From NCBI GenBank assembly GCA_963665695.1, contig OY762427.1, positions 627,268 to 691,267 on the forward strand: a stretch of 64,000 nucleotides of DNA, read 5' to 3'. Of the stretch, positions 6,099-58,539 are shown piece after piece; the stretch's first letter is position 1, and every line of letters begins with the position of its first letter. This stretch comes from Alphaproteobacteria bacterium (lineage in GTDB: Bacteria > Pseudomonadota > Alphaproteobacteria > Bin65). Under the pieces are notes generated by a model. The model saw only the letters and a program-made list of their open reading frames with translations, had not been told where the DNA came from and ran no database searches. The position numbers and the translations under genes were made by a program.

Positions 6099-6123
6099 GG
6101 CGGCCGTCGCCGCGCCCGGACCG

Positions 6124-6444
6124 TCATGCCGGCAGGCCGCCGAGCAGCCGCGGATCGAGCGGATCGCACTCCTTGCCGGTCAGGGCCTCGGCCGCGATCC
6201 AGACTTCGGCGATGTTGCCGACGATCTTCGAGCGGCCGGTGCGGGTCGAGAGCACATAGGAGCCGCCGCTGAAATCCGCGAGCTTCAGGCCGTAATGGCC
6301 GAGGATACGGTTGGCGAGGCGGATGCGCTCCTGGCGCTCGCGCCGCCGCGTGACCTCCTCCTGCCGGCTGGCGAAGGCCTCGGGCGAAGAGCTGCTCTCG
6401 GTCCAGTGGCCGCGCCCGCCGAGCACGCCGCACAGGCTGCACAT
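6124..6444 (-). CDS. Small Cys-containing hypothetical protein
   Basis: 106-aa ORF between the deacetylase and COG0523 genes, same strand. N-terminal CSLCG and a C-terminal Cys. No family recognised. Confidence 0.4.
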   Translation of the reverse strand: MCSLCGVLGGRGHWTESSSSPEAFASRQEEVTRRRERQERIRLANRILGHYGLKLADFSGGSYVLSTRTGRSKIVGNIAEVWIAAEALTGKECDPLDPRLLGGLPA

Positions 6445-8874: not shown

Positions 8875-10140
8875 TCACGCGCTGCCGCCGAACCAGTCGG
8901 GCGGCGCCCGTTCGGCGCGGAAGATCGCCCAGCCTTGCCCGGCGCCGCCGTCCCGGTCGTTCAGTTCGGCGTGGAACAGGATTTCCGGCGGGTCCGCCCG
9001 CGTCACCTCGAACACCTCCGCGCTGCCGTAGCCTTTCGGCGGCAGATCGGTGCGCGCGCCCTCCGGCCGGGTGAGCGTAATGCCGCCGAAGGTGACGAAG
9101 ACGTTGCCCGTCTGCGGCAGTTCCTGCGCGCCGCTGACATACATCGAATAGGGTCCCTCGAACGACCAGACCGGTTCGCAGGTCATCGCCCGCTCGTCGA
9201 TCCGGTAGGCGATGGCGCGGCTGACCAGGCTGTCGATATCCCGTTTCGGCGCCGGCGGGAAGGCGCCGCTCTCGCCGTTGTCGAACAGCAGCAGGCTGCC
9301 GTCCTGCATGAGGCTCGGATCGTGCTGATGCCAGAACCAGTCCGCCCGGCCGGCGGGCTTCAGCAGCTTGGACGCCCAGGGTTCGCGCCAGCCGTGCGGC
9401 GTGCCGAGGATCCATATGAGCGCGCCGCTTTTCCGGTCGATCTTGACGGTGCAGTCCTGGTGGCGGACCGTGACGATGAAGCTGTCGTCCGACGGATCGT
9501 GGATCAGCCCGTTGGCGTGGGTCCAGTCGGCGGCGCCGGGCGCGGCCTCCGCGATGGTCCAGAAAGGCGCGTCCAGCCCGTAGCCGATGCGGTGCGGGTC
9601 GATGACGTCGAAGAAATCGTGCTCGCGCACCGCCGTGCCGTCGGCGGCGAACTCGACGACCGTGTCGCCGGCGAGCAGCCGTTGCCCGCGCGGCCCGGCG
9701 ATATCGTTTTCGGACAGCGGGTAATCGTCGAAGGTCCGCGTCGTCAGCGACAGGGCGGCGAAATTGCCGTCGGGCAGTTCCTGCACCGAGTGGTGGAAAT
9801 ACAGCGTATCGACGGGAACCGCGTTCTCCGCCTGCGGGCCGCGGCCGGGCGAGGACCAGGCGCGGATCGTCTCGCCCGACTGCGCGACCTCGAGGATGCA
9901 GCCGTCGGTGGTCAAGACCAACAGCGTATCGCGCGGCGTGCGCTTGACGTCCATCAGCGAGCGGTTGCCGGGCGAACGCCACTGCCAGGCGATTTTGCCG
10001 TGACGGTCGAGCGCGACCAGCGCCTCGAACTCCGACTCGCGCGAGATCGCCCGCACCGCCTTGCCGACCGGCAGAACGATGAAGCCGGGCTCGCGCCGCT
10101 CCGGAATGCAGGTGTGAATGCGGAAAGGCGGAGCCTCCAT
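8875..10140 (-). CDS. Arylsulfotransferase (ASST)-like beta-propeller protein
   Basis: Start chosen at the ATG at 10140 (MEAPPF...), 1 nt after the upstream gene's stop. The longer listed ORF (to 10353) would overlap the upstream MetE-like gene. Confidence 0.5.
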   Translation of the reverse strand: MEAPPFRIHTCIPERREPGFIVLPVGKAVRAISRESEFEALVALDRHGKIAWQWRSPGNRSLMDVKRTPRDTLLVLTTDGCILEVAQSGETIRAWSSPGRGPQAENAVPVDTLYFHHSVQELPDGNFAALSLTTRTFDDYPLSENDIAGPRGQRLLAGDTVVEFAADGTAVREHDFFDVIDPHRIGYGLDAPFWTIAEAAPGAADWTHANGLIHDPSDDSFIVTVRHQDCTVKIDRKSGALIWILGTPHGWREPWASKLLKPAGRADWFWHQHDPSLMQDGSLLLFDNGESGAFPPAPKRDIDSLVSRAIAYRIDERAMTCEPVWSFEGPYSMYVSGAQELPQTGNVFVTFGGITLTRPEGARTDLPPKGYGSAEVFEVTRADPPEILFHAELNDRDGGAGQGWAIFRAERAPPDWFGGSA

Positions 10141-12434: not shown

Positions 12435-13144
12435 CGACCTTCGTTCTGGTGCATGGCGCCTGGCACGGCGGCTGGTGCTGGCGCGACGTTGCGGACCGTC
12501 TGCGCGCAGACGGCCATGCCGTGTACGCGCCGACGCTGACCGGGCTTTCCGACCGCTCGCACCTGCTGACGCGCGAGACCGGCCTGGAGACCCACATCCT
12601 CGACATCGTCAACCTGCTCGAATGGGAGGAGCTGGACGATATCGTGCTGTGCGGCCACAGCTATGGCGGGATGGTCGTCACCGGCGCCGCCGACCGCGCG
12701 GCCGGGCGGCTCCGGGCGCTGGTCTATCTCGACGCCTTCGTGCCGGCGGACGGGCAGTGCGTCAACGATATGGCCCCGCCCGAGCGCGTCGCGGCGTTCG
12801 AGAGGTCCGCCGCGGAACGGGGCGGCGGCTGGAAGGCGCCGCCCCTGCCGGCGAGCGCCTGGCTCGACGATCCGGCCCAGCAGGCGTGGGTCGAGGCCAA
12901 GGTGACGCCGCACCCCCTGCGCTGCCTCACCGAACCCATCGAGCTGTCCGGCGCATGGGAGGCGGCCGGCCGCAGGATGCACATCCTGGCGAGCGCCAAC
13001 GACCCCTCGCCCTTCCACGCGATCCACGAGCGCGTAGCGTCCGAACCGGGCTGGCAGCGCCGCCGCATCGACGGCCCGCACGACCTGATGATCTCGCATC
13101 CGGAGGAGACCGCCGCGCTTCTGCTGGAAGCCGCCGAACCCTGA
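12431..13144 (+). CDS. Alpha/beta hydrolase (methylesterase/salicylate-esterase-like)
   Basis: HGAWHGGW oxyanion region and a GHSYGG nucleophile elbow. ATGA overlap with the upstream epimerase. The start is inside the long artefactual ORF 10343..13144. Confidence 0.7.
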   Translation: MTTFVLVHGAWHGGWCWRDVADRLRADGHAVYAPTLTGLSDRSHLLTRETGLETHILDIVNLLEWEELDDIVLCGHSYGGMVVTGAADRAAGRLRALVYLDAFVPADGQCVNDMAPPERVAAFERSAAERGGGWKAPPLPASAWLDDPAQQAWVEAKVTPHPLRCLTEPIELSGAWEAAGRRMHILASANDPSPFHAIHERVASEPGWQRRRIDGPHDLMISHPEETAALLLEAAEP

Positions 13145-36228: not shown

Positions 36229-37056
36229 TTACCGCGAGCGCCGGTACAGGATGGTGTAGACCACGATGAACAGCCCGATCAGGCAGAAGGAGAAGATCGT
36301 CGAGGCGGTGCCGAGCGCGAACAGGGTCGGGCGGATGCGCTGGGTCATCGAGGCGTTGATGTCCAGCGGCAGGGTGTTGTACTCGCCCGACAGCAGGGTG
36401 GTGCGGGCGAACTCGTCGTAGGACAGCGTAAAGCCGAACAGGCCGGCGGCGACGATGCCGGGCAGGATAAGCGGCAGGGTGATCTCCCGGAACACCGTCC
36501 ATTCGCCGGCGCCCATGTCCCGGGCGGCCTCCTCCAGGCTGCTGTCGAACCGGTTGAAGACGGCCATCATCACGAGAAATCCGAAGGGCAGGGTCCAGAC
36601 GACGTGGACGCCCAGGCCCGACGACCACCAGGCCGGCGGAATGCCGATCTGGCGCATCAGGGTGGCGAGGCCCAGGCTGAGCAGCACGCCGGGCACCATC
36701 AGGCCCAGCATGATCGTGTAAAACAGCAGGTTGGAGCCCCGGAACTTGCGCCGGAAGGCCATCGCCAGCATGGTCGAGAACAGCGCCGTGATGACCATGA
36801 CGACCAGCGCGAGGATGAGCGACCGGGCGAGCGCGCCCTGGAGATCGCCGATCGAGGACGGCTCGAGCAGCTTCTCCCACCAGTAAGTGCTGAACCCGCG
36901 CATCGGGAAGCTGGTGCCGCCGCGCCTGCCCTGGAAGGACAGGGCGAACATGGCGATCATCGGCCCGAAAATGAAGACGATGAACAGGATGTAATAGATG
37001 CTGAAGCCGGTTTTCACGGCCAGCGCCTTCGTCCTCCGCCGGGTCCAGCGCGTCAT
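36229..37056 (-). CDS. ABC transporter permease (PotC-like)
   Basis: 6 TM helices with an EAA-like loop (EEAARDMGAGEWTVFREITLPL). Confidence 0.8.
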   Translation of the reverse strand: MTRWTRRRTKALAVKTGFSIYYILFIVFIFGPMIAMFALSFQGRRGGTSFPMRGFSTYWWEKLLEPSSIGDLQGALARSLILALVVMVITALFSTMLAMAFRRKFRGSNLLFYTIMLGLMVPGVLLSLGLATLMRQIGIPPAWWSSGLGVHVVWTLPFGFLVMMAVFNRFDSSLEEAARDMGAGEWTVFREITLPLILPGIVAAGLFGFTLSYDEFARTTLLSGEYNTLPLDINASMTQRIRPTLFALGTASTIFSFCLIGLFIVVYTILYRRSR

Positions 37057-37059
37057 CGC

Positions 37060-38055
37060 CTACAGCTCCTTGCGGATGTCGACGACGCGCAGGATGAAGA
37101 ACACGCCGATCATCATGGCCAGCATCAGCATGATCGCGTTCACCGCGGCGAACGGATAGTTCGCGGTCGCGTAGTAGTTCAGGATCACGGTGCCGGTGGT
37201 CGAGGTCTTGCCGCCGTAGACGACCACGGCGGTGGCGAACTCGCCCATCAGCATGACGAACAGGAAGATCAGGCCGATGGCGACGCCGGGCAGGGAGAGC
37301 GGCAGGATAATCTCGCGGAAGACCCGGTAACTGCTGGCCCCCATGTCCCGCGCCGCCTCGAGGATGTCCTTGTCGATCTTGGCGAGCGAAAAGAAGATCG
37401 GCCCGATGCACAGCACGACATAAAGCTGCGCCAGCGCCATCGTGTAGCCGAACTCGGAATACAGGAAGAAGGAACTCGGCTTGTCGATGACGCCCAGATT
37501 CATCAGCATCTTGTTGAACAGGCCGCGCCGGCCGAGCATCGGCAGCCAGGCCACGGCGCGGATCAGGTAGCTGGTCCAGAACGGCACCATCGCCACCAGG
37601 AACAGCGCCAGCTGCCATTTGAAATTCTTCACCTGCATCGCCAGGAAAAAGGCGATCGGGTAGCCGATGATCAGGCAAACGGCCATCACGGTGATGGTGA
37701 AGCGGAAGGTCGTCCACAGGGTGGTCAGGAAAATGCTGAGCTTCAGGAAATTGCGGTGTTCGGGATCGAAAAACCCTTCCTGCCGGAAGAAATTGCCGAA
37801 GTTGATGAGCGTGAAGTCCGGCGTCATGCCGCCCCTGACCGGCGTCCAGAAGCTGAACACCACGATGCCGATCAGCGGCACGACGAGAAAGACGATCAGC
37901 CAGAGGCTTGCCGGCGCGACCAGCCAGCCGGGATGGATGGCCTGGTCGCGCTTGGTTTTCTTCAGCCGCGCGATGTCCTGCGCCGGCGGCGCCGGCTGGT
38001 CGCCGATCAGGCCGCTGTGATGCCGTTTTGCATGCGGTGGCGCAGTCTGAAGCAT
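37060..38055 (-). CDS. ABC transporter permease (PotB-like)
   Basis: 6 TM helices with an EAA-like loop (LEAARDMGASSYRVFREIILPL). Confidence 0.8.
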   Translation of the reverse strand: MLQTAPPHAKRHHSGLIGDQPAPPAQDIARLKKTKRDQAIHPGWLVAPASLWLIVFLVVPLIGIVVFSFWTPVRGGMTPDFTLINFGNFFRQEGFFDPEHRNFLKLSIFLTTLWTTFRFTITVMAVCLIIGYPIAFFLAMQVKNFKWQLALFLVAMVPFWTSYLIRAVAWLPMLGRRGLFNKMLMNLGVIDKPSSFFLYSEFGYTMALAQLYVVLCIGPIFFSLAKIDKDILEAARDMGASSYRVFREIILPLSLPGVAIGLIFLFVMLMGEFATAVVVYGGKTSTTGTVILNYYATANYPFAAVNAIMLMLAMMIGVFFILRVVDIRKEL

Positions 38056-48007: not shown

Positions 48008-48237
48008 CAGAGAATAAGGCGGGAAAACAGAGGCTTGGCCCGGTTTCCTGACCTGGACAGACCGGTCTTTCTTTTTCGTTTTTTCACGCCGCGCAGCCCT
48101 AACCCTTTGGAATCGCTGAAAAACGCCATCGGGGAGTGCCGCAAATTCCGGATTACAAGGATAATAGTCCTTGCCCGGCGACCCCCTGTCCGTTTTCCGG
48201 AGAATAAGCGGAAATACAACGGGTTGGCCGGCGTTCC
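48008..48237. repeat. Two copies of a ~40-bp motif (GAGAATAAGGCGGGAAAACAGAGGCTTGGCCCGGTTTCC / GAGAATAAGCGGAAATACAACGGGTTGGCCGGCGTTCC)
   Basis: Seen directly at ~48010 and ~48199. A third, degenerate copy sits near 48413. Confidence 0.6.
48040..48090 (+). terminator. Possible intrinsic terminator after hyuB
   Basis: Hairpin CCGGT...ACCGG (GACCGGTC palindrome) followed by the T-rich run TCTTTCTTTTTCGTTTTTTC. Confidence 0.3.
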
Positions 48238-48600
48238 GCCGACGCCGCAGGCTCCGGCGCCTGGCCGGCCTCCGTCGCCAGCCGGATTTCTCCGCTCGCT
48301 TCGCTTCGGTCGAAATGACGGGAAGGGGCTTGCGCTTCGCCCGAATCGGCGGCGCGCGGACGGCGCTCCGCACTCCCGTCATTTCGACCGGAGCCCCAGC
48401 CCGCCGGGCCGGGGCGGAGCGGAGAAACCCGGAGGGCGCTCCGTCGACGCCGCAGCCTCCGGCGTCCGCCCGGCGCCCGTCGCCGGCCGGATTTCTCCAC
48501 TCGCTTCGCTTCGGTCGAAATGACGGGAAGGGGGAGTGCTTCGGTCGAAATGACGGCGAGAGGGAGTGCTCCGGTCGGAATGACGGCGAGGGATTTCGCA
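48229..48600. repeat. ~100-bp direct repeat (two copies, ~88% identical) plus four or more copies and one inverted copy of a TCGGTCGAAATGACGG REP-like motif
   Basis: The 100-bp copies are at ~48229-48322 and ~48427-48532. Short-motif copies are at 48298, 48507, 48540 and 48562 (degenerate), with an inverted copy CCCGTCATTTCGACCGG at 48365. Confidence 0.65.
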
Positions 48601-48978: not shown

Positions 48979-49045
48979 GCCCGAACCGCAGACCCCGAAC
49001 CGTAGACCCCGAACCGTAGACCCCGAACCGTAGACCCCGACCGTG
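48979..49045 (+). repeat. 14-bp tandem repeat (GACCCCGAACCGTA, ~4.7 copies) abutting the ettA start
   Basis: Seen directly. The last, degenerate unit contains the GTG at 49043 and the in-frame TAG at 49031. Confidence 0.7.
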
Positions 49046-50722
49046 GACCCGAAGAAATACATCTATGTCATGAAGGGCCTGTCGAAGACCTGGCCCGGCG
49101 GCCGGCAGGTCCTGAAGGACATATGGCTGTCCTTCCTCCCCGGCGCCAAGATCGGCGTGCTCGGCCTGAACGGCGCCGGGAAATCCTCCCTGCTCAGGAT
49201 CATGGCCGGGCTGGACGACGGCATTTCCGGCGAGGCCTGGGCCGCGGACGGCGTCAGGGTCGGCTATCTGGCCCAGGAGCCGGAACTCGATGAGGCGCTG
49301 ACGGTCGGCGAGAATGTCAGGGCGGGCGCCGGCCCGCTGGCGGCGCTGGTCGAGCGGTTCAACGAGGTCTCCCTGCGCTTCGGCGAGGAGCTGACCGACG
49401 CGGAGACGGACGCCCTGATCGAGGAGCAGGCCGCGCTTCAGGAACGGATCGACGCCGCCGACGCCTGGAACCTCGACCGGCGCATCGGGATCGCGATGGA
49501 CGCGCTGCGCTGCCCGCCGGCGGACGGCGGCGTCGCCACCCTCTCCGGCGGCGAGCGGCGGCGCGTCGCGCTCGCGCGGCTGCTGCTTTCGGGGCCGGAC
49601 ATGCTGCTGCTCGACGAGCCGACCAACCATCTCGACGCCGAATCGGTCGCCTGGCTCGAGCGCTTCCTGGCGGAATTTCCCGGCGCCGTCGTCGCGGTGA
49701 CCCACGACCGCTATTTCCTCGACAACGTCGCCGGCTGGATCCTCGAACTGGACCGCGGGCAGGGCATTCCCTGGCAGGGCAACTACTCGTCGTGGCTGGA
49801 GCAGAAACAGAAGCGGCTGGAGCAGGAGGGCAAGGCCGAAGCAGCGCGCCGGCGCACCCTGGGCCGGGAGCTGGAATGGATCCGCCAGGCGCCGCGGGCG
49901 CGCCAGTCCAAGAGCAAGGCGCGGATCGGCGCCTACGAGGCGCTGCTCGCCGAAGCCGGCGACCGGGCGCCGGAGCAGATGCAGATCTGGGTGCCGCCGG
50001 GGCCGCGCCTGGGCGACATGGCGGTCGAGGCCAGCGGCGTGCGCAAGGCGTTCGGCGACCGGCTGCTTATGGACGACCTGAACTTCCTCATGCCGCCGGG
50101 CAGCATCGTCGGCATCGTGGGGCCGAACGGCGCCGGCAAGACGACCCTGTTCCGCATGATCGCCGGGCAGGAGGCGCCGGACGCCGGCACGCTCACGGTC
50201 GGCGAGACGGTGCAGCTCGGCTATGTCGACCAGTCCCGCGGCGCGCTCGACGATTCGAAGACGGTGTGGGAGGAGATTTCGGGCGGCCTGGACATGCTGC
50301 AACTGGGCAAGCGGGAGCTCCCCAGCCGCGCCTATGTCTCCAATTTCAACTTCAAGGGCGGCGACCAGCAGAAGAAGGTCGGCATGCTCTCCGGCGGCGA
50401 GCGCAACCGGGTGCATCTCGCCAAGGTGCTGAAATCCGGCGCCAACCTGCTGCTGCTCGACGAGCCGACCAACGATCTGGACGTCGATACCATGCGCGCG
50501 CTGGAGGAAGCGCTGCTCGCCTTCGCCGGATCGGTCATGGCGATCAGTCACGACCGCTGGTTCCTCGACCGCATCTGCACCCACATCCTCGCCTTCGAGG
50601 GCGACAGCCGGGCGGTCTGGAACGAAGGCAACTGGCAGGACTACGAGGAAGACCGCCGGAAACGGATGGGCGAGGCGGCCGAACGGCCGCACCGCATCGA
50701 ATACCGCCGGCTGGAGGCGTGA
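49043..50722 (+). CDS. ettA: Energy-dependent translational throttle protein EttA (ABC-F ATPase)
   Basis: Two ABC cassettes and an EttA-like N-terminus (KYIYVMKGLSKTWPGGRQVLKDIWLSFLPGAKIGVLGLNGAGKSSLLRIMAG). GTG start at 49043; the alternative ATG is at 49070. Confidence 0.85.
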   Translation: MDPKKYIYVMKGLSKTWPGGRQVLKDIWLSFLPGAKIGVLGLNGAGKSSLLRIMAGLDDGISGEAWAADGVRVGYLAQEPELDEALTVGENVRAGAGPLAALVERFNEVSLRFGEELTDAETDALIEEQAALQERIDAADAWNLDRRIGIAMDALRCPPADGGVATLSGGERRRVALARLLLSGPDMLLLDEPTNHLDAESVAWLERFLAEFPGAVVAVTHDRYFLDNVAGWILELDRGQGIPWQGNYSSWLEQKQKRLEQEGKAEAARRRTLGRELEWIRQAPRARQSKSKARIGAYEALLAEAGDRAPEQMQIWVPPGPRLGDMAVEASGVRKAFGDRLLMDDLNFLMPPGSIVGIVGPNGAGKTTLFRMIAGQEAPDAGTLTVGETVQLGYVDQSRGALDDSKTVWEEISGGLDMLQLGKRELPSRAYVSNFNFKGGDQQKKVGMLSGGERNRVHLAKVLKSGANLLLLDEPTNDLDVDTMRALEEALLAFAGSVMAISHDRWFLDRICTHILAFEGDSRAVWNEGNWQDYEEDRRKRMGEAAERPHRIEYRRLEA

Positions 50723-50892: not shown

Positions 50893-51867
50893 ATGGGATT
50901 TGCGCTTTCGCACATCCGGGCGGCGGCGGCTGCCCCTTTGCTTATTGCCGGGGTCCTGGCGGCCGGAACGGCGTCCGAGGCCCTGGCCTGTGCCCGGGTT
51001 TCCGATACGATACTGGTCACCGGCAAACCGGCAACCGGGACCGGAGGCGTTTCCGGTCACGACCTCAGTCCGCCGCTGGACGATTTCGAGGCCTTCGCCG
51101 CCTTCATGCAGAAGGCCCGGGGCGACAAACCGGACTTTCTGCGCGCGAAATGGGAACGCTACCTGGCGATGATCGAGAATTTCGACCTGTCGCGGGACAA
51201 GGAAAAACGCGCCTTCCTGGCGACGCCCCGCGAGGAATTTTCCCGCGCCCGGGACGCCGGCCGGAGCTATGCCCATTCCTTCCTCGATATCGGCTGCGGC
51301 GTGACGATATCCGGCCCGCATATCGTCGGCCGCATGACCTCGGAACTGGATGTCAGGCCGGCGGACAAGGTGCTCGAGATCGGCACCGGCTCCGGCTATC
51401 AGGCGGCATTGCTGAGCTATCTCACGCCGCACGTCTATTCCGTGGAGATCATCCCGCCGCTTTCGGAGACGACGGACAGGATTCTCACCAGGCTGACCGC
51501 GGCCAAATATGCCGAATACGGCCGGATCCGGCGCAAGACCGCCGACGGCTACTTCGGATGGCCCGAGCATGCGCCCTTTGCCAAGATCATCGTGACCGCC
51601 GGGATCGACCATATCCCGCCGCCGCTGCTGAAACAGCTTGCCGAAGGCGGCACCATGGTCATTCCGGTCGGGCCGCCGGGCGCCCAGTCCCTGCTCAAGC
51701 TGACCAAGACCAGGAGCGAAACCGGCCGCGTCCGCATCGAGCGGCACGACATCTACGCCGCACAATGCAGCCGGGCGGAAAAGCAGCGCTGCAAGCGCAA
51801 GGTGAACTTCGTGGCGCTCACCAAGTACCGGGGCGGCAAGACCGTCTCGCGCTGGGGCGGGAACTAG
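50893..51867 (+). CDS. pcm: Protein-L-isoaspartate O-methyltransferase family protein with signal peptide and N-terminal extension
   Basis: SAM-binding LEIGTGSGYQAALLS, plus pre- and post-motif PIMT blocks (HSFLDIGCGVTISGPHIVGRM; EGGTMVIPVG). About 100 extra N-terminal residues, including a hydrophobic leader. Confidence 0.7.
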   Translation: MGFALSHIRAAAAAPLLIAGVLAAGTASEALACARVSDTILVTGKPATGTGGVSGHDLSPPLDDFEAFAAFMQKARGDKPDFLRAKWERYLAMIENFDLSRDKEKRAFLATPREEFSRARDAGRSYAHSFLDIGCGVTISGPHIVGRMTSELDVRPADKVLEIGTGSGYQAALLSYLTPHVYSVEIIPPLSETTDRILTRLTAAKYAEYGRIRRKTADGYFGWPEHAPFAKIIVTAGIDHIPPPLLKQLAEGGTMVIPVGPPGAQSLLKLTKTRSETGRVRIERHDIYAAQCSRAEKQRCKRKVNFVALTKYRGGKTVSRWGGN

Positions 51868-51963
51868 CCCGGATTTCCCACAGCGCCGCGCCGCACCGGC
51901 CCCGCGCGCAGGATATCGTTGCGAAACGGCCCGGACGCGCCCGCGGCCCTTCCGGCATCGCCG

Positions 51964-53049
51964 CTATGTTTGCATCAGGTCCGACAGACGCGCTCGCTTT
52001 GCATCGGCGCCCATGTGCAATAGCATGATGCGATCCGGTTCCGACATGAACCAGGCGAACGAACGCCATGCCAGTTCGCTTACGGAAGCCTTGAAGGCCG
52101 AATCGTCCCGATCCGCATAAGCTGTCAGGAACGCGACCTGCCCTTCGCTGAAGCCCGCTTCTGTTGCGATGGCCATCAGCGCTGCCTGCCGTCCTTCAGT
52201 GACCGGTCCTGCCGTTGCGACGACCTCGACGAACACGAGGAGCGGCTCGACCGGTTCAAGGTCAACCAGAATCGGATCAGGCAGATTCCTGTCTGGCTCG
52301 ATTGCGAGGCCGATGTCCTGTGCCAGGCTGTCGTCCCGCGCCACCACCCGATTTCGGCTCTCGCTCAGCCAGATAACCCCCGGTTGCCCCAGGAACCGCG
52401 CCGCAAACTCTTCAACGACCGCCTTAGAGATCGTGGAACTCGGACCGGGTTCCATGTGCCGTGTCTCCCCATTAGGAAACGTAACGAGAACTTTCGCCTC
52501 GCGGGCGACCGCTCCCCGGCGCATGATCGCAACTCGGGCCAATGCGCCCTTGGACAGGTTCGCTGCCCGCCATTCCTCCGTCAGTGTATTCAACGCATCT
52601 TCCGTCAGCGAAGGATCGAACAGAGCTGCAAAATCCGGCGCTAACGAATAACGCGGGAGTGGCGATGTCGTCGGCAGCCCTTCCCTTTCCTTCACCGCGC
52701 CGATTCGCACCAACCCTTCGCGCAGGGTTTCGTCACGGATCGGCTCGCGCGTGTTCGCGGCGTACCACCTCCCTTCGATGTCGCTCGCTGCCGGGCGCAT
52801 AGACACCTGCAACCATCGTTTCCGTTCGGGGCCGTCTGCCAGTGCCGCCTGGGCATCGGACATTCGCGTCACCTGATCGGGGCGTAGCCAGCAATCCTCG
52901 CCATCTACTGCTCCGATATAAAGCATGACAAAAACCGTTTTGGCCGCGATCTCCCGGGTCACATAGTTTCGGTTCGCCGTTCCCTCGGGAAAGATCGTCT
53001 GCAGGCGTTCGTGGATACCGGCGACCGGCAGTAGCGGCGGCAATGGCAT
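51964..53049 (-). CDS. Type II restriction endonuclease, BsuBI/PstI family
   Basis: The C-terminal domain is characteristic of BsuBI/PstI REases (GVIWLSESRNRVV...LVDLEPVEPLLVFVEVVATAG...). It lies immediately 3' of the MTase, with start and stop codons overlapping. Local GC is lower than the flanks. Confidence 0.7.
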   Translation of the reverse strand: MPLPPLLPVAGIHERLQTIFPEGTANRNYVTREIAAKTVFVMLYIGAVDGEDCWLRPDQVTRMSDAQAALADGPERKRWLQVSMRPAASDIEGRWYAANTREPIRDETLREGLVRIGAVKEREGLPTTSPLPRYSLAPDFAALFDPSLTEDALNTLTEEWRAANLSKGALARVAIMRRGAVAREAKVLVTFPNGETRHMEPGPSSTISKAVVEEFAARFLGQPGVIWLSESRNRVVARDDSLAQDIGLAIEPDRNLPDPILVDLEPVEPLLVFVEVVATAGPVTEGRQAALMAIATEAGFSEGQVAFLTAYADRDDSAFKASVSELAWRSFAWFMSEPDRIMLLHMGADAKRARLSDLMQT

Positions 53050-54857
53050 CAGCCGGCGCCGCGGCTGTACAGGCGTTCTACCGCGCGCTCCAGCGTCGCG
53101 CGGTTCGCTCGCTCGTTCACCAGCCGCTCGATCTCCCCCACATCCTCCGGCAGCGGAAGAGGCAAGGCTTCCAGTTCATAGGCCGAAACGGCCACACTTC
53201 CATTGATGCACCGGAAAACCTGATCGACGACATCGCTGTTGAAAAGGACGGCCAGGGCTGCCAGCGCCACCTTCGGGGCGCCATTGAGCGGTTTGATCAT
53301 GTTCAGGTGATTCTCGATTACCACCGCACCGTGTTTCGCCAGGAACGATACCGGTAGTTCCGCCGCTATCAGCCGCCTGCACTGCTCTTTCGCCGTCGTT
53401 CTTTGCAGCAGTACGCACGGAAACTCCGTCACCACCCACATTTCCTTGGCTTTGGGCTCAAAATACGGCTTGTGGTTTCGTTTCTCCGCCCGGAACGAAA
53501 ACACCCCGTCCGGCCGCACGGATTCTGCCCAGATCAGCGGATAGCGTCCCGTGCCGGGGCCGGACCGCAAGCTCGTTTTGTGGCGGTTCCACACCAGCGG
53601 CCCCGTGCTGACAGTGTAGCCGTAGCCGGCAAGCCTACAGGGCATTTCGTCGACCTGCCTCAGCAACGCGCTCTGCGCTTCCGTTCTCGGCATCAGCCAG
53701 GGCCGACCCGGGTCTTCGGGCAGGTTGAACGGACCTGCAGCCCTTGTCGCGACAGAGCCGTCCCGTGCCGGCGAGATGAAATAGACCTTCCCGGTGCGCG
53801 AAGTCGCGTCCCGCTTGTAGGTCGCCAACAGCGTTTCCTGCAGCACGTCCGCGAAGACCCCCTTCCGCTCCGCGACAAAGCCGATGCTCACCGGGGGCGC
53901 CTCCCGGCCCAGCAAACCGCGGAGCGCCTTGAAATATTCTCCAGCCAGGAAGCTCGTAGGGGTGACATAGGCGACGACTCCGCCCGGCCGCGCGAACCGA
54001 AGAGCCAGGTCGGTAAACACGCCGTACAGGTTTGCGTGGCCGAACAGGCTGCGCCGGAATTTTTCGCGCAATTCCGGCGAGAGCCCGATACGTCCGTAAG
54101 GAGGATTGCCGACGACGAGATCGAATCCTTCGTTCCCGACCGCCTGTTCGAGGCTGTCGCAGACACGCACCACCGAATCCGGGCGCGTCCCCGCTTCATG
54201 GCACAAGTCGGCGAGCGCCGCTTCGAGGAACACCTGCGATAGCCAGGCAGCGAACGGATCCAGTTCGAATCCCAGTAACCGCTGCTCGATGTTCTTCAGC
54301 GCAATCCTGGGCTCGCAGTCCCTCAAACTCCTCGCCATGCGCCGGGCCACCGGCGACAGGAAAGCGCCGCCTCCGCACGCCGGATCCAGAATCCGCGCCG
54401 TTCGCCAATCCACCCCTGCTTCCGCCGCCATGTCCAACAGGACTTCGCAGAGTGCCGGCGGCGTATAATAGGCGCCGTTTCGAGATCGAAAGCCGCCCGG
54501 CATCGTCGCGGTGTACAGCACCCCGATCGCGTAGCCGGCGTCCATCGCATCCAGCTTCGCAGCAGCGGCCCCGATGTTCTCGGCCAGCACTCCGGCCTCC
54601 TCCGGCAGCGAAGAAAGGCCGATATCCAAGGGCGGTCTGCGCAGCGGCCGAATACGGCCCGACGCCCTCTGCAACTGTTGCCAATATCCGGAGACCGCCC
54701 CAAAGACCACTCGCCGCGCAAAGCCCATACGATGTTGCTGCTCGACTGACGACGCCAATGCGCGGGCGCGCAAAGACCCCTCTTCGATCCCCGCCAGCGC
54801 CGACTTTAGCGGCGCCGCGTTTCGGACTTCCAATATGTTCGATATTCTCGTCGCCAC
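53049..54857 (-). CDS. N6-adenine DNA methyltransferase (gamma class, NPPY), partner of the BsuBI/PstI-type REase
   Basis: SAM motif I (ILDPACGGGAFL), catalytic motif IV (VVGNPPYGRIG) and a C-terminal TRD-like region. 602 aa. Confidence 0.8.
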   Translation of the reverse strand: MATRISNILEVRNAAPLKSALAGIEEGSLRARALASSVEQQHRMGFARRVVFGAVSGYWQQLQRASGRIRPLRRPPLDIGLSSLPEEAGVLAENIGAAAAKLDAMDAGYAIGVLYTATMPGGFRSRNGAYYTPPALCEVLLDMAAEAGVDWRTARILDPACGGGAFLSPVARRMARSLRDCEPRIALKNIEQRLLGFELDPFAAWLSQVFLEAALADLCHEAGTRPDSVVRVCDSLEQAVGNEGFDLVVGNPPYGRIGLSPELREKFRRSLFGHANLYGVFTDLALRFARPGGVVAYVTPTSFLAGEYFKALRGLLGREAPPVSIGFVAERKGVFADVLQETLLATYKRDATSRTGKVYFISPARDGSVATRAAGPFNLPEDPGRPWLMPRTEAQSALLRQVDEMPCRLAGYGYTVSTGPLVWNRHKTSLRSGPGTGRYPLIWAESVRPDGVFSFRAEKRNHKPYFEPKAKEMWVVTEFPCVLLQRTTAKEQCRRLIAAELPVSFLAKHGAVVIENHLNMIKPLNGAPKVALAALAVLFNSDVVDQVFRCINGSVAVSAYELEALPLPLPEDVGEIERLVNERANRATLERAVERLYSRGAG

Positions 54858-54900
54858 ACCGCCTCCCCAGCCGGCATCGGAAGTTCGTTCGCTTTGCCCC

Positions 54901-57303
54901 TTACCCGCACTTGCTGTAGGTGCAGCCGGTGCAGATATCGCAGCCTTCCTGGCGGATCAGGGCGCGCTGGCCGCATTTCGGACAGCCGCGCATGGCCGGG
55001 CCGGCGCTTCCCGACCCCGGCCCGCCGCCCGTTACGGCGACCGCCTGCGCGCCCGCACCCGCGCCACCGGCCGCAACGGCCTCCGTGCCGCCGACGACCT
55101 TCAGCTCGCGCCGGCCTTCCCGCGCCTCTTTCGGATCGGGCAGGAAGCCGATGTCGATCATGTGCTGCTCGATGACGTCGCCGATCGCGGCGAGCAGGCT
55201 GGGGACGTAGCGCGGGCCGACCCACTGGCCGCCGCGCGGATCGAACACCGCCTTCAGCTCCTCGACCACGAAGGACACGTCGCCGCCGCGCCGGAACACG
55301 GCGCTGATCATGCGGGTCAGGCCGACCGTCCAGGCATAATGCTCGGTATTCTTCGAGTTGATGAAAATCTCGAAGGGCCGGCGGCGGCCGTCCTGGATAA
55401 TGTCGTTGAGCGTGATGTAGATGGCGTGGTCGCTCTCCGGCCAGCGGATCTTGTAGGTCCGGCCGGGCAGCGCTTCCGGCCGGTCGAGCGGCCTGGTCAT
55501 GTAGACGACTCCGCCGGCGTCCAGATCGTCCGCCGGCTTCGCCGCAGCCGGTTTCTGCGGCGGCGCGAGCGGCAGTTCCCGCTGCGCCGCGTCGGCCGGT
55601 TTCGCGTCCCGACCGGCGGTCAGCACCGCACCGGTGACGTCGTTCGGCCGGTAGGTCGTACAGCCCTTGCAGCCCATGTCGAAGGCCAGCGCGTAGACAT
55701 CCCGGAAGGCATCGAAGCCGATGTCCTCCGGGCAGTTGATCGTTTTGGAGATCGAGCTGTCGACATGTTTCTGGACCGCCGCCTGCATCGCGACATGGTC
55801 GCGCGGGCTCAGGTCGCCGGCGTCGACGAACCAGTCCGGCAGCGGCGCATCCGCGCCCTTCAGCCGGCGGTAGAGCCGCCAGGCGTAGTCGGCGACCTCC
55901 TCCTCGCGCCGGGCGCCGTCCGGCATCAGCACGTTGCGGGTGTAGGACCAGGTGAAGACCGGCTCGATGCCGGACGACACGTTATCGGCGAGCAGCGAGA
56001 TCGTGCCGGTCGGCGCGATCGAGGTCAGCAGGGCGTTGCGCAAGCCCTTTTCGCGGATCGCGTCGCGCACTTCCCCGTCCGCTTCGGCCATGGCCGGGGT
56101 TGCGAGATATTTCTCCGGGTCGAACAGCGGGAAGGCGCCTTTCTCGGCAGCCAGACCGGCCGAGGCCAGATACGCCGCCTTCTGCACCGCCGCGAGCCAT
56201 TCTCCGGCCAGCCGCACGGCCTCCGCGCCGCCGTAGCGCGCCCGGCACATGATGAGCGCGTCGGCCAGCCCCGTCACGCCGAGCCCGATGCGCCGCTTGG
56301 CCAGCGCCTCCGCCCGCTGCGCTTCCAGCGGGAAGTTCGAGAGGTCGGTAACGTTGTCCATCATGCGCACGGCGACGGCGGTGAGCGCGCGCAATTCTTC
56401 GAGGTCCAGCGCGGCGCCCGGCTCGAACGGCTCCCGGACCAGCCGCGCCAGGTTGATCGAGCCGAGCAGGCAGGCGCCGTAGGGCGGCAACGGCTGTTCG
56501 CCGCATGGATTGGTGCTGGCTATTTTTTCGCAATAATTCAATGGGTTAAGCCGGTTGATCCGGTCGATGAAGATGACGCCCGGCTCGGCGAACGCGTAGG
56601 TCGAGCGCATGATGGCATCCCACAGCGCCCGCGCCTGCACGGTGCGGCAGACCGCGCCGCCGAAGACGAGATCCCACGGATCGTCCCGCCGGACGGCCTC
56701 CATGAAGGCGTCGGTCACCAGCACCGACAGGTTGAACATGCGCAGCCGGCCGGGCTCGCGCTTGGCCTCGATGAAGGCCTCGATATCCGGATGGTCGCAG
56801 CGCAGCGTCGCCATCATGGCGCCGCGGCGGTGGCCGGCGCTCATGATCGTCCGGCACATCGAATCCCAGACATCCATGAAGGAGAGCGGCCCGGAAGCAT
56901 CGGCGCCGACGCCGCGGACCGGCGCGCCGCGCGGCCTGAGCGTCGAGAAGTCGTAGCCGATGCCGCCGCCCTGCTGCATGGTGAGCGCGGCTTCCCGGAG
57001 CTGGCGGAAGATGCCGCTCATGTCGTCCGGGATCTCGCCCATGACGAAGCAGTTGAACAGGGTGACGTTGCGGTCCGCGCCGGCGCCGGCGAGGATGCGC
57101 CCGGCCGGCAGGAAGCGGAAATCGCGCATGGCGTCGAAGAACCGGCCTTCCCACGCCGCCGGTTCGCGCTCGACCGCCGCCAGCGCCTTCGCCACCCGCC
57201 GCCAGGTATCGTCGATCGTCCGGTCGACCGGCGCGCCGTCCGGCCCCTTGAGCCGGTACTTCATGTCCCAGATCCGCTGGGAGATGGCGGCGATGTTGGT
57301 CAT
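54901..57303 (-). CDS. nrdJ: Ribonucleoside-diphosphate reductase, class II (adenosylcobalamin-dependent)
   Basis: 800 aa. Active-site block NPCGEQPLPPYGACLLGSINL and a C-terminal Cys cluster (CPKCGQ...CDICTGC). Confidence 0.9.
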   Translation of the reverse strand: MTNIAAISQRIWDMKYRLKGPDGAPVDRTIDDTWRRVAKALAAVEREPAAWEGRFFDAMRDFRFLPAGRILAGAGADRNVTLFNCFVMGEIPDDMSGIFRQLREAALTMQQGGGIGYDFSTLRPRGAPVRGVGADASGPLSFMDVWDSMCRTIMSAGHRRGAMMATLRCDHPDIEAFIEAKREPGRLRMFNLSVLVTDAFMEAVRRDDPWDLVFGGAVCRTVQARALWDAIMRSTYAFAEPGVIFIDRINRLNPLNYCEKIASTNPCGEQPLPPYGACLLGSINLARLVREPFEPGAALDLEELRALTAVAVRMMDNVTDLSNFPLEAQRAEALAKRRIGLGVTGLADALIMCRARYGGAEAVRLAGEWLAAVQKAAYLASAGLAAEKGAFPLFDPEKYLATPAMAEADGEVRDAIREKGLRNALLTSIAPTGTISLLADNVSSGIEPVFTWSYTRNVLMPDGARREEEVADYAWRLYRRLKGADAPLPDWFVDAGDLSPRDHVAMQAAVQKHVDSSISKTINCPEDIGFDAFRDVYALAFDMGCKGCTTYRPNDVTGAVLTAGRDAKPADAAQRELPLAPPQKPAAAKPADDLDAGGVVYMTRPLDRPEALPGRTYKIRWPESDHAIYITLNDIIQDGRRRPFEIFINSKNTEHYAWTVGLTRMISAVFRRGGDVSFVVEELKAVFDPRGGQWVGPRYVPSLLAAIGDVIEQHMIDIGFLPDPKEAREGRRELKVVGGTEAVAAGGAGAGAQAVAVTGGGPGSGSAGPAMRGCPKCGQRALIRQEGCDICTGCTYSKCG

Positions 57304-57540
57304 GAACGGTCTGCTACTGCGAAAGCGCCCGCTGAACCTCGCAGGCTACAACAGTTGCGTTCGGGCGAACACACGGGAATGTTCTTTTTTCGTTTCCACA
57401 ATATAAGCCACATTTCCCTGCCCGCCAACCCGCTGAATCGAAGGAACTTTGCGGGCTTATCCCCGGACTTTGCCGGGTGCGGATCGTTGCAGCACGCCGC
57501 CGACGCGACGAAATCTCGCCGGCCGCCCGACGGAACTTTC

Positions 57541-58539
57541 TCAAATGGGGTTCCCGCCGCTATCCGAATAGCGCACCAGCATCTTGCCGACATGGTTGCC
57601 GGAGAGCACGTCGTGCAGGGCGGCGGGCGTCCGCTCCATGCCGTCGACGGTCTGGTTGTGCATCGCCAGGCGGCCGGCCCGCAGCAGCGCGCCCAGGCGC
57701 TCGATGACTTTGGGATACAGCGCCTTGTAAGCGTAGCGGTTGAACGAATGGATCGTCGCCTCCCGCGACCAGACATGGCGCAGGTTCGCCATGTCCCGCT
57801 CCGGCTCGGCGCTGTTGTTCGCCGCGACGCGGCCGACCAGCAGGATATCGGCCCCCAGGGCGAGGTGTTCCGACACGGCGTCGGCCACCGGGCCGCCGAC
57901 CGTATCGAAATAGAGGTTCACGCCGTCGGGGCAGGCCGCGGCGAGGTCGTCGCGGAAGCTGCCGGAGCGGTAATCGACCGCGGCGTCGGCGCCCAGCCGG
58001 TCGCGCACGAAGGCGGCCTTTTCCGGGCCGCCGGCGATCCCGACGACCCGCGCCCCGGCCAGCCGGCCGAGCTGCACCGCATAGCTGCCGACCGCGCCCG
58101 CCGCCGAGGTGACGACCAGGGTTTCGCCCGGCATCGGCCGCACCTTCTGCGAAAAGGCGAGATACGGGGTCTGCCCCGGCGAGGACAGGGCGGTCAGCCA
58201 TTCCTCCGCGGTAAAGTCGTCGGAGGCGGGCGAGACATCCTCCGGCCGGACGATGGCGTAATCCTGCCAGCCCTGGCGGCCGACCGCCGCCGCGCCGGCC
58301 GGCAGCGCAGCGCACCGGCTCTCGACGACCCGGCCGAAGGTATCGCAGGAGATCGGCTCGCCGATATCGAACGGCCGGATGAAATTTTTGAAATCCTTGG
58401 TGCGCATACCCTGCCAGGCCGACAGCGCCGCCATCTCGATCCGCACCAGCGCCTGGCCGTCCCCGATCTCCGGAACCGGGCCGCGCTGGAGTTCGAAATT
58501 TTCGGGACCGGCAAGACGGACCGGGCGGGAACGCAGCAC
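57541..58539 (-). CDS. NADPH-dependent medium-chain dehydrogenase/reductase (quinone oxidoreductase / YncB-like)
   Basis: MDR Rossmann segment (VTSAAGAVGSYAVQLGRLAGARVVGIAG) and overall MDR layout without structural-Zn cysteines. Confidence 0.8.
   Translation of the reverse strand: MLRSRPVRLAGPENFELQRGPVPEIGDGQALVRIEMAALSAWQGMRTKDFKNFIRPFDIGEPISCDTFGRVVESRCAALPAGAAAVGRQGWQDYAIVRPEDVSPASDDFTAEEWLTALSSPGQTPYLAFSQKVRPMPGETLVVTSAAGAVGSYAVQLGRLAGARVVGIAGGPEKAAFVRDRLGADAAVDYRSGSFRDDLAAACPDGVNLYFDTVGGPVADAVSEHLALGADILLVGRVAANNSAEPERDMANLRHVWSREATIHSFNRYAYKALYPKVIERLGALLRAGRLAMHNQTVDGMERTPAALHDVLSGNHVGKMLVRYSDSGGNPI

What the first reader, a model, noticed from the sequence alone, without database searches (positions are those of the whole stretch)
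51880..54900. PstI/BsuBI-type type II restriction-modification pair inserted, with lower GC, between pcm and nrdJ
A gamma-class N6-adenine MTase (NPPY) and a BsuBI/PstI-family endonuclease are co-oriented, with overlapping stop and start codons (ATG 53049). The DNA is visibly less GC-rich than its surroundings, consistent with horizontal acquisition of a defence module into a housekeeping neighbourhood. The MTase, at 602 aa, is longer than classical M.PstI-like enzymes and may carry an extra domain.
Basis: partly seen in the sequence, partly recalled or inferred. Interest (0 to 1): 0.5.

Follow-up and report, generated by a model that had tools for sequence, protein, structure and literature searches.

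The report
Ordinary PstI-family restriction-modification gene pair
This is an intact, apparently working two-gene bacterial defence cassette (a DNA methylase plus a matching DNA-cutting enzyme) of an already catalogued family. It was picked up from elsewhere and landed just behind the ribonucleotide reductase gene, so it is real but ordinary.

Summary
A 602-aa gamma-class N6-adenine methyltransferase gene (53049-54857, minus strand) sits upstream of a 361-aa BsuBI/PstI/SdaI-family endonuclease gene (51964-53049). Both are on the same strand and share a 1-nt TGATG stop/start overlap. Together they are the lowest-GC 2.9 kb of the window.

Both genes are full length against REBASE-derived PADLOC profiles. 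They keep the family's conserved catalytic residues and are under purifying selection (dN/dS 0.11-0.22).

Horizontal origin is supported. A close relative has an empty site. Another relative has the same cassette flanked by an 82-bp duplication of the nrdJ 3' end, which is the known "insertion with long target duplication". Copies at 58-80% identity occur in other phyla and on conjugative plasmids.

Two refinements:
- **Insertion site.** The original insertion was between nrdJ and gdh/chaC. pcm was brought alongside later by a rearrangement that ends at the cassette's right edge.
- **Methylase length.** The extra length is a helical N-terminal extension of about 100-145 aa. The whole subfamily has it, so it is not peculiar to this gene.

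The recognition site is unproven. Identity to characterised CTGCAG enzymes is only 25-30%, although CTGCAG is depleted in the window.

Verdict: new member of a known kind, low interest.

The parts
53049..54857 (-). M gene: 602-aa gamma-class N6-adenine DNA methyltransferase, GTG start
   Evidence: ORF. Pfam Eco57I and N6_Mtase. PADLOC MTase_II profile PDLC03338 matched at positions 22-598 of 604, 792 bits. Closest solved structures are M.TaqI and M.BseCI. dN/dS 0.15-0.20.
54862..54868 (-). Shine-Dalgarno-like GGGGAGG, 4 nt before the GTG start of M
   Evidence: Read directly from the sequence. The GTG GCG AC start is conserved in relatives. The first 43 aa are conserved in homologs of 597-602 aa.
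54483..54857 (-). N-terminal extension of M (aa 1-125), helical, no Pfam match
   Evidence: AlphaFold2 gives helices 17-36, 40-66, 86-99, 104-118 and 121-127, with 10-residue block pLDDT means of 81-94 over aa 21-120. No Pfam hit even at E<=10. The classical ~494-position M profile aligns only from query aa 124. Residues are conserved across the subfamily from about aa 30.
54366..54386 (-). AdoMet-binding motif I (D158-P-A-C-G-G-G164)
   Evidence: D158, P159, G162 and G164 are invariant across 50 homologs and A160, C161 and G163 are conserved in at least 90%. The motif aligns to M.TaqI LEPACAHG.
54096..54107 (-). Catalytic motif IV, NPPY (aa 251-254)
   Evidence: Read from the sequence. Invariant in 50 homologs. 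Aligned to M.TaqI NPPY and to the NPPY of the EcoGIII-type methylase.
53052..53840 (-). C-terminal part of M (aa ~340-602), presumed target-recognition domain
   Evidence: No Pfam match. It is 29% identical to the CTGCAG methylase of phage TL-2011c through aa 568. The structure model is poor here, so the domain assignment is inferred from the gamma-class layout.
51964..53049 (-). R gene: 361-aa BsuBI/PstI/SdaI-family type II endonuclease, ATG overlapping the M stop by 1 nt
   Evidence: ORF. Pfam PF17728 and PF06616. PADLOC REase_II profile PDLC03589 matched at positions 1-361 of 364, 442 bits. SdaI (2ixs) E 2e-15. dN/dS 0.11-0.22.
52525..53019 (-). R N-terminal winged-helix DNA-binding domain (aa 11-175), with the conserved R101-E102-x-x-R105 stretch
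   Evidence: Pfam BsuBI_PstI_RE_N E 8e-30. R101 and R105 are invariant and E102 nearly invariant across 18 diverse relatives, including SdaI and the EcoGIII-type enzyme.
52015..52491 (-). R C-terminal PD-(D/E)XK-type catalytic domain (aa 187-345). P257-D258 lie at 52276-52281 and E275 at 52225-52227.
   Evidence: Pfam BsuBI_PstI_RE E 3e-40. P257 and E275 are invariant and D258 nearly invariant in alignment A1. The position of SdaI K251 is not conserved in the family, and it is also not Lys in the EcoGIII-type enzyme, whose counterpart in E. coli C227-11 is reported to be active.
54858..54900 (-). 43-bp nrdJ-M spacer holding the left junction of the cassette. Homology to the empty-site relative stops at 54878.
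   Evidence: blastn of the window against L004 ends at 54878. Alignment A3. No terminator-like site or significant hairpin here.
54896..54975 (-). 3' end of nrdJ: the target sequence that is duplicated on both sides of the cassette in relative L089
   Evidence: Window 54975-54896 matches L089 9102-9181 at 91%. Within L089 the repeat is 82 bp and 95% identical, at 6071-6152 and 9102-9183.
51938..51963 (-). Tail after the R stop that is still shared with L089. The right junction and rearrangement breakpoint lie at about 51938.
   Evidence: Window-L089 homology runs to 51938 and window-L001 homology to 51973. Beyond that the window has pcm where L001, L089 and L004 have gdh-chaC.

Best explanation
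This is a functional, minimal type IIP restriction-modification cassette with gene order M then R.

M is a gamma-class N6-adenine methyltransferase. It protects the host's own copies of a short palindromic site. R is a two-domain enzyme like SdaI: an N-terminal winged-helix domain reads the site and a C-terminal PD-(D/E)XK-type domain cuts it. R cleaves incoming DNA that lacks the methyl mark.

The cassette has only about 20 bp of its own upstream DNA, no controller gene and no terminator separating it from nrdJ. It is therefore most likely transcribed by read-through from nrdJ. R translation is probably coupled to M through the TGATG overlap, so methylase is made first or together with the nuclease. 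These expression steps are inferred.

The most likely target contains CTGCAG. That is inferred from family membership, from conserved residues in the DNA-binding domain and from site depletion. I rate it at about 55%.

The cassette is foreign DNA. It entered this Rhodospirillaceae lineage at the 3' end of nrdJ by insertion with a long (at least 82 bp) target duplication. In the window's sub-lineage a later rearrangement replaced the downstream copy and the gdh-chaC flank with pcm-ettA.

What is shown: gene integrity, family membership, selection, the empty site, the duplication in a relative, and spread across taxa and plasmids. What is inferred: enzymatic activity, the target sequence and the mode of expression.
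For: - Domains and motifs.
- Full-length matches to REBASE-derived PADLOC profiles for both genes.
- dN/dS 0.11-0.22 and no frameshifts.
- The M-R pair with the same 1-nt overlap recurs in every locus retrieved.
- The characterised CTGCAG pair of the EcoGIII type has the same M-then-R overlapping layout, 29% (M) and 25% (R) identity, and shares the conserved residues.
- Lowest GC and GC3 in the window.
- L004, whose nrdJ protein is 90% identical to the window's, has nrdJ followed by 376 bp and then gdh, with no M or R.
- L089 has an 82-bp, 95% identical direct repeat of the nrdJ 3' end on both sides of the 2.95-kb insert. Both copies align to the single copy in L004. This meets the criteria of Furuta et al. 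2010 (PMC2853133).
- chaC converges on nrdJ in dozens of more distant relatives that lack the cassette.
- Homologs at 72-79% identity occur in Bryobacterales in an unrelated context next to an IS1595 transposase. Homologs at 58-60% occur on 138 plasmid records, 75 of them conjugative.
- CTGCAG in the window outside the cassette: 10 observed against 27.4 expected from a Markov model (ratio 0.37). The ratio is 0.78 in high-GC relatives without the cassette (P about 0.005).
- There is no terminator-like site or significant hairpin between nrdJ and M. The only sigma-70-like site in 51700-57700 lies upstream of nrdJ.
Against: - No enzymatic or methylome data exist for this pair or, as far as I could find, for any named member of its subfamily.
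- Identity to characterised CTGCAG or CCTGCAGG enzymes is only 25-30%.
- A dinucleotide-shuffle null shows no CTGCAG depletion (13 observed, 13.2 expected). The depletion under the Markov null would not survive correction over 36 palindromes. Three of the 13 sites lie inside the cassette itself.
- The long target duplication is seen only in relative L089, not in the window.
- L004 could in principle have lost the cassette by recombination between the repeats, so the direction of the event rests on composition and wider synteny.
- Co-transcription with nrdJ rests only on the absence of detectable signals.
Confidence: 0.8

Rival explanations
1. It is the same cassette and is active, but its target is not CTGCAG. 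The subfamily would have diverged to a different, possibly longer or unrelated, palindrome.
For: Identity to CTGCAG (EcoGIII-type) and CCTGCAGG (SdaI) enzymes is only 25-30%. The pair matches its own PADLOC profiles, which are distinct from the classical ~494-aa M and ~317-aa R profiles. M has an extra N-terminal region. The dinucleotide-shuffle test shows no CTGCAG avoidance. CCTGCAGG occurs once in 148 kb of cassette-bearing loci against a Markov expectation of 5.9, so an 8-bp variant is possible.
Against: Similarity to the CTGCAG methylase extends through the presumed target-recognition region to aa 568. R101, E102 and R105 in the DNA-binding domain are shared with both CTGCAG-core enzymes. 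CTGCAG is the second most differentially depleted 6-bp palindrome in the window.
Confidence: 0.35
2. The cassette is a decaying or domesticated remnant. The methylase still works, for example as an epigenetic regulator, but the endonuclease is inactive.
For: The Lys that aligns with SdaI K251 is Ala here. There is no dedicated promoter or controller. The cassette appears to have been inherited vertically for some time in this lineage.
Against: That Lys position is not conserved anywhere in the family. It is also not Lys in the EcoGIII-type enzyme, whose counterpart in E. coli C227-11 is reported to be active. R keeps every invariant residue, is full length against its profile and has dN/dS 0.11-0.22, as low as M.
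Confidence: 0.08
3. The cassette is ancestral to the lineage rather than horizontally acquired. The low GC would be gene-specific, and the 'empty site' relative would simply have deleted it by recombination between the flanking repeats.
For: The 82-bp direct repeats in L089 would allow precise excision. The cassette is present in at least seven loci from this clade (the window, L001 with the near-identical L002, L089 and L090-L093), some with differing flanks. L004 shows a similarly low CTGCAG density, although only 4 sites in 19 kb.
Against: GC3 is 0.68-0.76 against 0.83-0.92 in neighbouring genes. None of the 80 nrdJ loci recovered from other species carries the cassette, and dozens have chaC directly after nrdJ. 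Near-identical architecture at 58-80% identity occurs in unrelated phyla and on conjugative plasmids. Allele histories are mosaic and incongruent with the flanks.
Confidence: 0.1

Closest known systems
EcoGIII-type / BsuBI / PstI type II R-M systems (CTGCAG). The copy examined here is on Stx2a phage TL-2011c (JQ011318.1).
   Same: Gene order M then R on one strand with overlapping stop and start codons. The methylase carries the Eco57I Pfam domain with NPPY. The endonuclease belongs to the same family and shares the conserved PD...E core and the R-E-x-x-R stretch. M similarity runs from motif IV to near the C-terminus. The system also travels on mobile DNA (PMC3893438).
   Different: Identity is only 29% (M) and 25% (R). 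M is 602 aa against 459 aa annotated, which could extend to at most about 521 aa upstream. R is 361 aa against 317 aa. The overlap is 1 nt (TGATG) against 4 nt. The pair is best matched by separate PADLOC profiles. Its specificity has not been shown.
SdaI (CCTGCAGG), PDB 2ixs
   Same: It is the only solved structure that matches R (E 2e-15, aa 94-344). It has the same two-part layout of a winged-helix DNA-binding region and a C-terminal nuclease domain (Pfam PF17728 and PF06616). The D and E of the active site are conserved.
   Different: Identity is about 26%. SdaI K251 has no counterpart here or in most of the family. SdaI recognises 8 bp. That its specificity lies on the wHTH recognition helix is from my recollection of Tamulaitiene et al. 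2006, which I could not read.
REBASE-derived PADLOC profiles PDLC03338 (MTase_II) and PDLC03589 (REase_II), and plasmid copies in Xanthomonas, Rhizobium, Cereibacter and Burkholderia
   Same: End-to-end matches at 792 and 442 bits. The plasmid copies have a 603-aa 'Eco57I domain' methylase followed by a 364-aa BsuBI/PstI-family endonuclease in the same order. This is the subfamily the window pair belongs to.
   Different: Plasmid copies are 58-60% identical. The Xanthomonas copy has a small ribbon-helix-helix gene overlapping the M start, which the window lacks. No profile or record names a recognition site.
R-M 'insertion with long target duplication' (Nobusato/Furuta/Kobayashi; PMC2853133)
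   Same: In relative L089 a 2.95-kb insert holding only M and R is flanked by an 82-bp direct repeat. The repeat is single-copy in the empty-site relative, and no transposase or integrase is present.
   Different: In the window itself the downstream repeat has been lost to a later rearrangement, leaving at most about 26 bp of shared tail.

Membership tests
BsuBI/PstI/SdaI restriction endonuclease family (Pfam PF17728 + PF06616) | N-terminal winged-helix DNA-binding domain (BsuBI_PstI_RE_N) | tested here: met
   E 8.2e-30, 103.9 bits against a cut-off of 27, aa 11-175.
BsuBI/PstI/SdaI restriction endonuclease family (Pfam PF17728 + PF06616) | C-terminal catalytic domain (BsuBI_PstI_RE) with the conserved PD...E residues | tested here: met
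   E 2.8e-40, 137.7 bits against a cut-off of 27. P257, D258 and E275 align with SdaI P232, D233 and E248 and with the EcoGIII-type enzyme.
BsuBI/PstI/SdaI restriction endonuclease family (Pfam PF17728 + PF06616) | Recognition of a CTGCAG-core palindrome and cleavage within it | tested here: inconclusive
   CTGCAG ratio is 0.37 in the window against 0.78 in relatives under a Markov null, P about 0.005. There is no depletion under dinucleotide shuffles. Identity to characterised enzymes is 25-30%.
Gamma-class N6-adenine DNA methyltransferase (M.TaqI / Eco57I-domain type) | Motif I (AdoMet binding) lies N-terminal of motif IV NPPY, with the target-recognition region C-terminal | tested here: met
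   DPACGGG at aa 158-164 and NPPY at aa 251-254, followed by about 260 aa of C-terminal region after the core. Both motifs align to M.TaqI. Foldseek returns gamma-class adenine methylases as the best and most numerous matches; weaker matches at lower ranks are small SAM-dependent methyltransferases (low-confidence model).
Orthodox type II R-M system | Separate, adjacent M and R genes, both intact | tested here: met
   Two ORFs with a 1-nt overlap. Full-length profile matches. dN/dS 0.11-0.22.
Orthodox type II R-M system | M and R act on the same sequence, and methylation blocks cleavage | not testable with these tools
   Needs a methylome and digestion assays.
C-protein (controller)-regulated R-M systems | A small HTH or RHH regulator gene within or just upstream of the cassette | tested here: not met
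   Only 43 bp separate the nrdJ stop from the M start, and no small ORF lies within the cassette. A Xanthomonas plasmid copy does have an RHH gene.
R-M insertion with long target duplication (criteria of PMC2853133) | The insert holds both R and M, is shorter than 20 kb, and is flanked by direct repeats longer than 30 bp that align to a single copy in a genome lacking the insert | tested here: met
   Met in relative L089: a 2.95-kb insert with an 82-bp, 95% identical repeat, both copies aligning to L004 12308-12389. Not met in the window itself, where no flanking repeat remains.

The most novel reading that the evidence does not exclude
This large but apparently uncharacterised ~600-aa M / ~361-aa R subfamily might recognise a sequence not yet assigned to any PstI-family enzyme. 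Its conserved N-terminal helical extension might have a function of its own, for example autoregulation or partner binding that replaces a controller protein in chromosomal copies.
Probability: 0.15. Interest if true: 0.35.

Novelty: new member of a known kind. Interest (0 to 1): 0.18.

Why it matters
The finding mainly matters for annotation.

- It marks a defence and addiction cassette, and a likely m6A methylation motif, in an uncultured Rhodospirillaceae genome. That is relevant to transformation barriers and to linking plasmids or phages to hosts by their methylation pattern.
- The comparison with relatives gives a clean, datable example outside the usual model species of an R-M cassette entering by long target duplication.
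- It also shows such a cassette sitting at a later rearrangement breakpoint, with alleles that recombine within the clade.
- None of this changes what is known about R-M systems.

Tried and rejected
- **Missing catalytic Lys.** I first suspected an inactive nuclease because SdaI K251 aligns with Ala here. I rejected this: the position varies across 18 diverse relatives and is Thr in the EcoGIII-type enzyme.
- **Flanking repeats in the window.** No convincing direct or inverted repeats bound the cassette. A 9-bp CGATGCCGG occurs near both ends (read) but has no counterpart in relatives, so I treated it as chance.
- **Terminator or structure.** Nothing above shuffled controls between nrdJ and M or after R.
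- **Structure of M.** The model is poor (pLDDT 58), especially aa 300-570. The Foldseek result only confirms a gamma-class methylase core and says nothing about the target-recognition region.
- **Pfam on the N- and C-terminal parts of M at E<=10.** No hits.
- **Literature for a named, characterised member of the ~600-aa subfamily.** None found. The Pseudomonas syringae CTGCAG system is only 2.4 kb, which is the classical size. The Sinorhizobium paper lists the motif without a gene. The SdaI structure paper is not held.
- **Exact-match look-up of the window's R.** No contig was returned.
- **Rfam.** No family reached threshold anywhere in the window.
- **RHH regulator in the Bryobacterales copies.** The small upstream ORFs there are unrelated to the Xanthomonas RHH gene.
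Full report
**Observation**

One runs 53049..54857 (602 aa) with a GTG start preceded by GGGGAGG. The other runs 51964..53049 (361 aa) with an ATG at 53049. The upstream TGA and the downstream ATG share one base.

The long ORF matches Pfam Eco57I and N6_Mtase. It carries motif I (DPACGGG, aa 158-164) ahead of NPPY (aa 251-254). This is the gamma-class order, and its best solved relatives are M.TaqI and M.BseCI.

The short ORF matches both halves of the BsuBI/PstI endonuclease family well above the gathering scores. Its only solved relative is SdaI.

nrdJ ends 43 bp upstream on the same strand, and pcm converges from the other side.

The cassette is the lowest-GC 2.9 kb of the window: 0.628 against a mean of 0.682 (sd 0.023). 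Its GC3 is 0.68-0.76 against 0.83-0.92 in neighbouring genes.

**Are the genes intact and in use?**

- Both proteins match REBASE-derived PADLOC profiles end to end. M matches positions 22-598 of 604 at 792 bits, and R matches positions 1-361 of 364 at 442 bits.
- Against four relatives for M and five for R, dN/dS is 0.11-0.22 for both genes.
- In an 18-sequence alignment spanning 21-61% identity, R keeps every invariant residue: R101, R105, P257, E275, R287 and P338. It also keeps the nearly invariant E102 and D258.
- I first suspected a dead nuclease because SdaI K251 aligns with Ala. That position is variable across the family. It is Thr in the EcoGIII-type enzyme of phage TL-2011c, and the endonuclease of this system in E. 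coli C227-11 was reported to be biochemically active. I dropped the idea.

**What kind of system is it?**

The closest characterised pair I could retrieve is the EcoGIII/BsuBI-type CTGCAG system carried by Stx2a phages. It has the same M-then-R order and overlapping codons. Identity is only 29% for M (aa 238-568) and 25% for R (aa 93-342).

The window pair belongs to a separate and very large subfamily.
- Thousands of database proteins of 597-604 aa (M) and about 361 aa (R) are 70-96% identical to it. They come from Rhodospirillaceae, Chromatiales, Bryobacterales and Chloroflexi.
- Copies 58-60% identical lie on 138 plasmid records from Xanthomonas, Burkholderia, Rhizobium, Cereibacter and others. 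Of these, 75 are conjugative.

The 602-aa length is therefore the norm for the subfamily. The classical ~494-position methylase profile aligns only from aa 124. The extra N-terminal part is conserved from about aa 30. It is predicted with good confidence as a set of helices at aa 17-127, although the model as a whole is poor. It matches no Pfam family. Its role is unknown.

**Specificity**

This cannot be settled here.

In favour of a CTGCAG-core site:
- family membership;
- M similarity to a CTGCAG methylase that extends through the presumed recognition region;
- the R-E-x-x-R stretch of the DNA-binding domain, shared with both CTGCAG and CCTGCAGG enzymes;
- site depletion. Outside the cassette, the window has 10 CTGCAG sites against 27.4 expected from a maximal-order Markov model (ratio 0.37). 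The ratio is 0.78 in 650 kb of high-GC relatives that lack the cassette (P about 0.005 for this pre-specified site).

Against:
- a dinucleotide-shuffle null shows no depletion (13 observed, 13.2 expected);
- the sample is small;
- the cassette-bearing loci are not independent of one another.

I put CTGCAG or a close variant at roughly 55%.

**Origin**

L004 (Rhodospirillaceae bin65) is a close relative; its nrdJ protein is 90% identical to the window's. It has nrdJ followed by 376 bp and then gdh, with no M or R. Its homology to the window stops at 54878, which is 23 bp past the nrdJ stop.

Two other relatives, L001 and L089, have nrdJ-M-R-gdh-chaC.

In L089 the 2.95-kb insert is flanked by an 82-bp, 95% identical direct repeat of the nrdJ 3' end. 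The copies lie at 6071-6152 and 9102-9183. Both align to the single copy in L004, and the sequence after the second copy continues into L004's intergenic DNA. This satisfies the published criteria for R-M "insertion with long target duplication" (PMC2853133).

chaC converges directly on nrdJ in dozens of more distant relatives, none of which has the cassette.

Bryobacterales copies lie in an unrelated context near an IS1595 transposase.

Together with the composition, this supports horizontal acquisition at the nrdJ 3' end.

**The pcm flank is secondary**

The window and L090-L093 have pcm-ettA after R instead of gdh-chaC. Homology to L089 ends at 51938, about 26 bp past the R stop. That is where the downstream repeat copy begins in L089. 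gdh and chaC are absent from the whole window.

So the cassette was not inserted "between pcm and nrdJ". A later rearrangement with a breakpoint at the cassette's right edge joined pcm to it.

Allele histories are also mosaic.
- The window's M is 96% identical to the L090 copy and 80% identical to the L001 copy, even though the flanking genes are 96% identical to L001.
- The middle of the window's R (aa 151-300) resembles the L001 allele, while its ends resemble L090 and L091.

This points to recombination between cassette alleles within the clade.

**Expression (inferred)**

The cassette brings only about 20 bp upstream of the M start and no controller gene. There is no terminator-like site or significant hairpin between nrdJ and M. 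The only sigma-70-like match in 51700-57700 lies upstream of nrdJ. Read-through from nrdJ, with R translation coupled through TGATG, is the simplest reading. It is untested.

**Verdict**

This is a real, intact, horizontally acquired type IIP R-M cassette of an already profiled subfamily of the BsuBI/PstI/SdaI family. It is a new member of a known kind and of low interest. The long-target-duplication footprint in a relative and the breakpoint at the cassette edge are tidy but expected features of R-M mobility.

Noticed in passing
window ~56505-56525 (inside nrdJ); L001 4598-8146, L089 2612-6145, L091 6288-9827: nrdJ is 800 aa in the window and 793-803 aa in L004 and L090. It is 1177-1182 aa in L001, L089 and L091/L092, where it carries an intein with a LAGLIDADG homing-endonuclease domain. 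Window homology to those loci breaks between 56525 and 56505, which marks the intein insertion point. This is a presence/absence polymorphism of a second selfish element in the same gene.
   Followed up: partly
L004 ~12440-12785 (the 'empty site' relative): The spacer between nrdJ and gdh holds a ~300-bp element with terminal inverted repeats (GGGGATTATAC... / ...GATGTAATCCCC). It sits inside a hairpin (GGGAGGGTTT / AACCCTCCC) that is uninterrupted in L089, so it looks like a MITE. The nrdJ-gdh spacer seems to be a repeated landing site.
   Followed up: partly
window 51964-53049 compared with L001, L089, L090, L091: The window's R allele is mosaic. aa 151-300 are 92-98% identical to L001 but 70-86% to L090/L091. 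aa 51-100 and 301-361 show the reverse. M is L090/L091-like throughout. This suggests recombination between cassette alleles.
   Followed up: partly
window, whole 64 kb: AAGCTT (the HindIII site) is absent, against about 11 expected from a Markov model. CTCGAG, ATCGAT and ATGCAT are also depleted more than in relatives. This hints at other R-M systems in this genome.
   Followed up: no
window 48230-48600 and 48980-49049: There are REP-like repeats: a 99-nt unit present twice at 90% identity, and 30-nt GCTTCGGTCGAAATGACGG... units in direct and inverted orientation. A 14-bp tandem repeat (CCCGAACCGTAGAC, about 5 copies) runs into the start of the ABC-F gene at 49043. Short matches to the REP units occur in L089.
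   Followed up: partly
window 50893-51867 (pcm): The PCMT domain covers only aa 101-286 of a 324-aa protein. The first ~35 aa look like a signal peptide (MGFALSHIRAAAAAPLLIAGVLAAGTASEALA), which suggests an exported isoaspartyl methyltransferase. Some relatives annotate shorter forms (253-299 aa).
   Followed up: no
L094 2017-2211 (Xanthomonas phaseoli conjugative plasmid NZ_CP029285.1): The plasmid copy of this R-M subfamily has a 64-aa ribbon-helix-helix gene overlapping the start of M, probably a controller. It is missing from the window and from the Bryobacterales copies.
   Followed up: partly
PADLOC profile PDLC03359 (840 positions) against window M aa 407-579 and R aa 88-344: One 'MTase_II' profile is matched by the C-terminal half of M and also by R. 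Single-chain M-R fusions of this family therefore exist. From memory, YenI of Yersinia enterocolitica is such a fusion.
   Followed up: no
window ~36600-37300: This is the second-lowest GC stretch of the window (about 0.634 over 2.9 kb). It lies in a region of long overlapping ORFs. I did not examine it.
   Followed up: no
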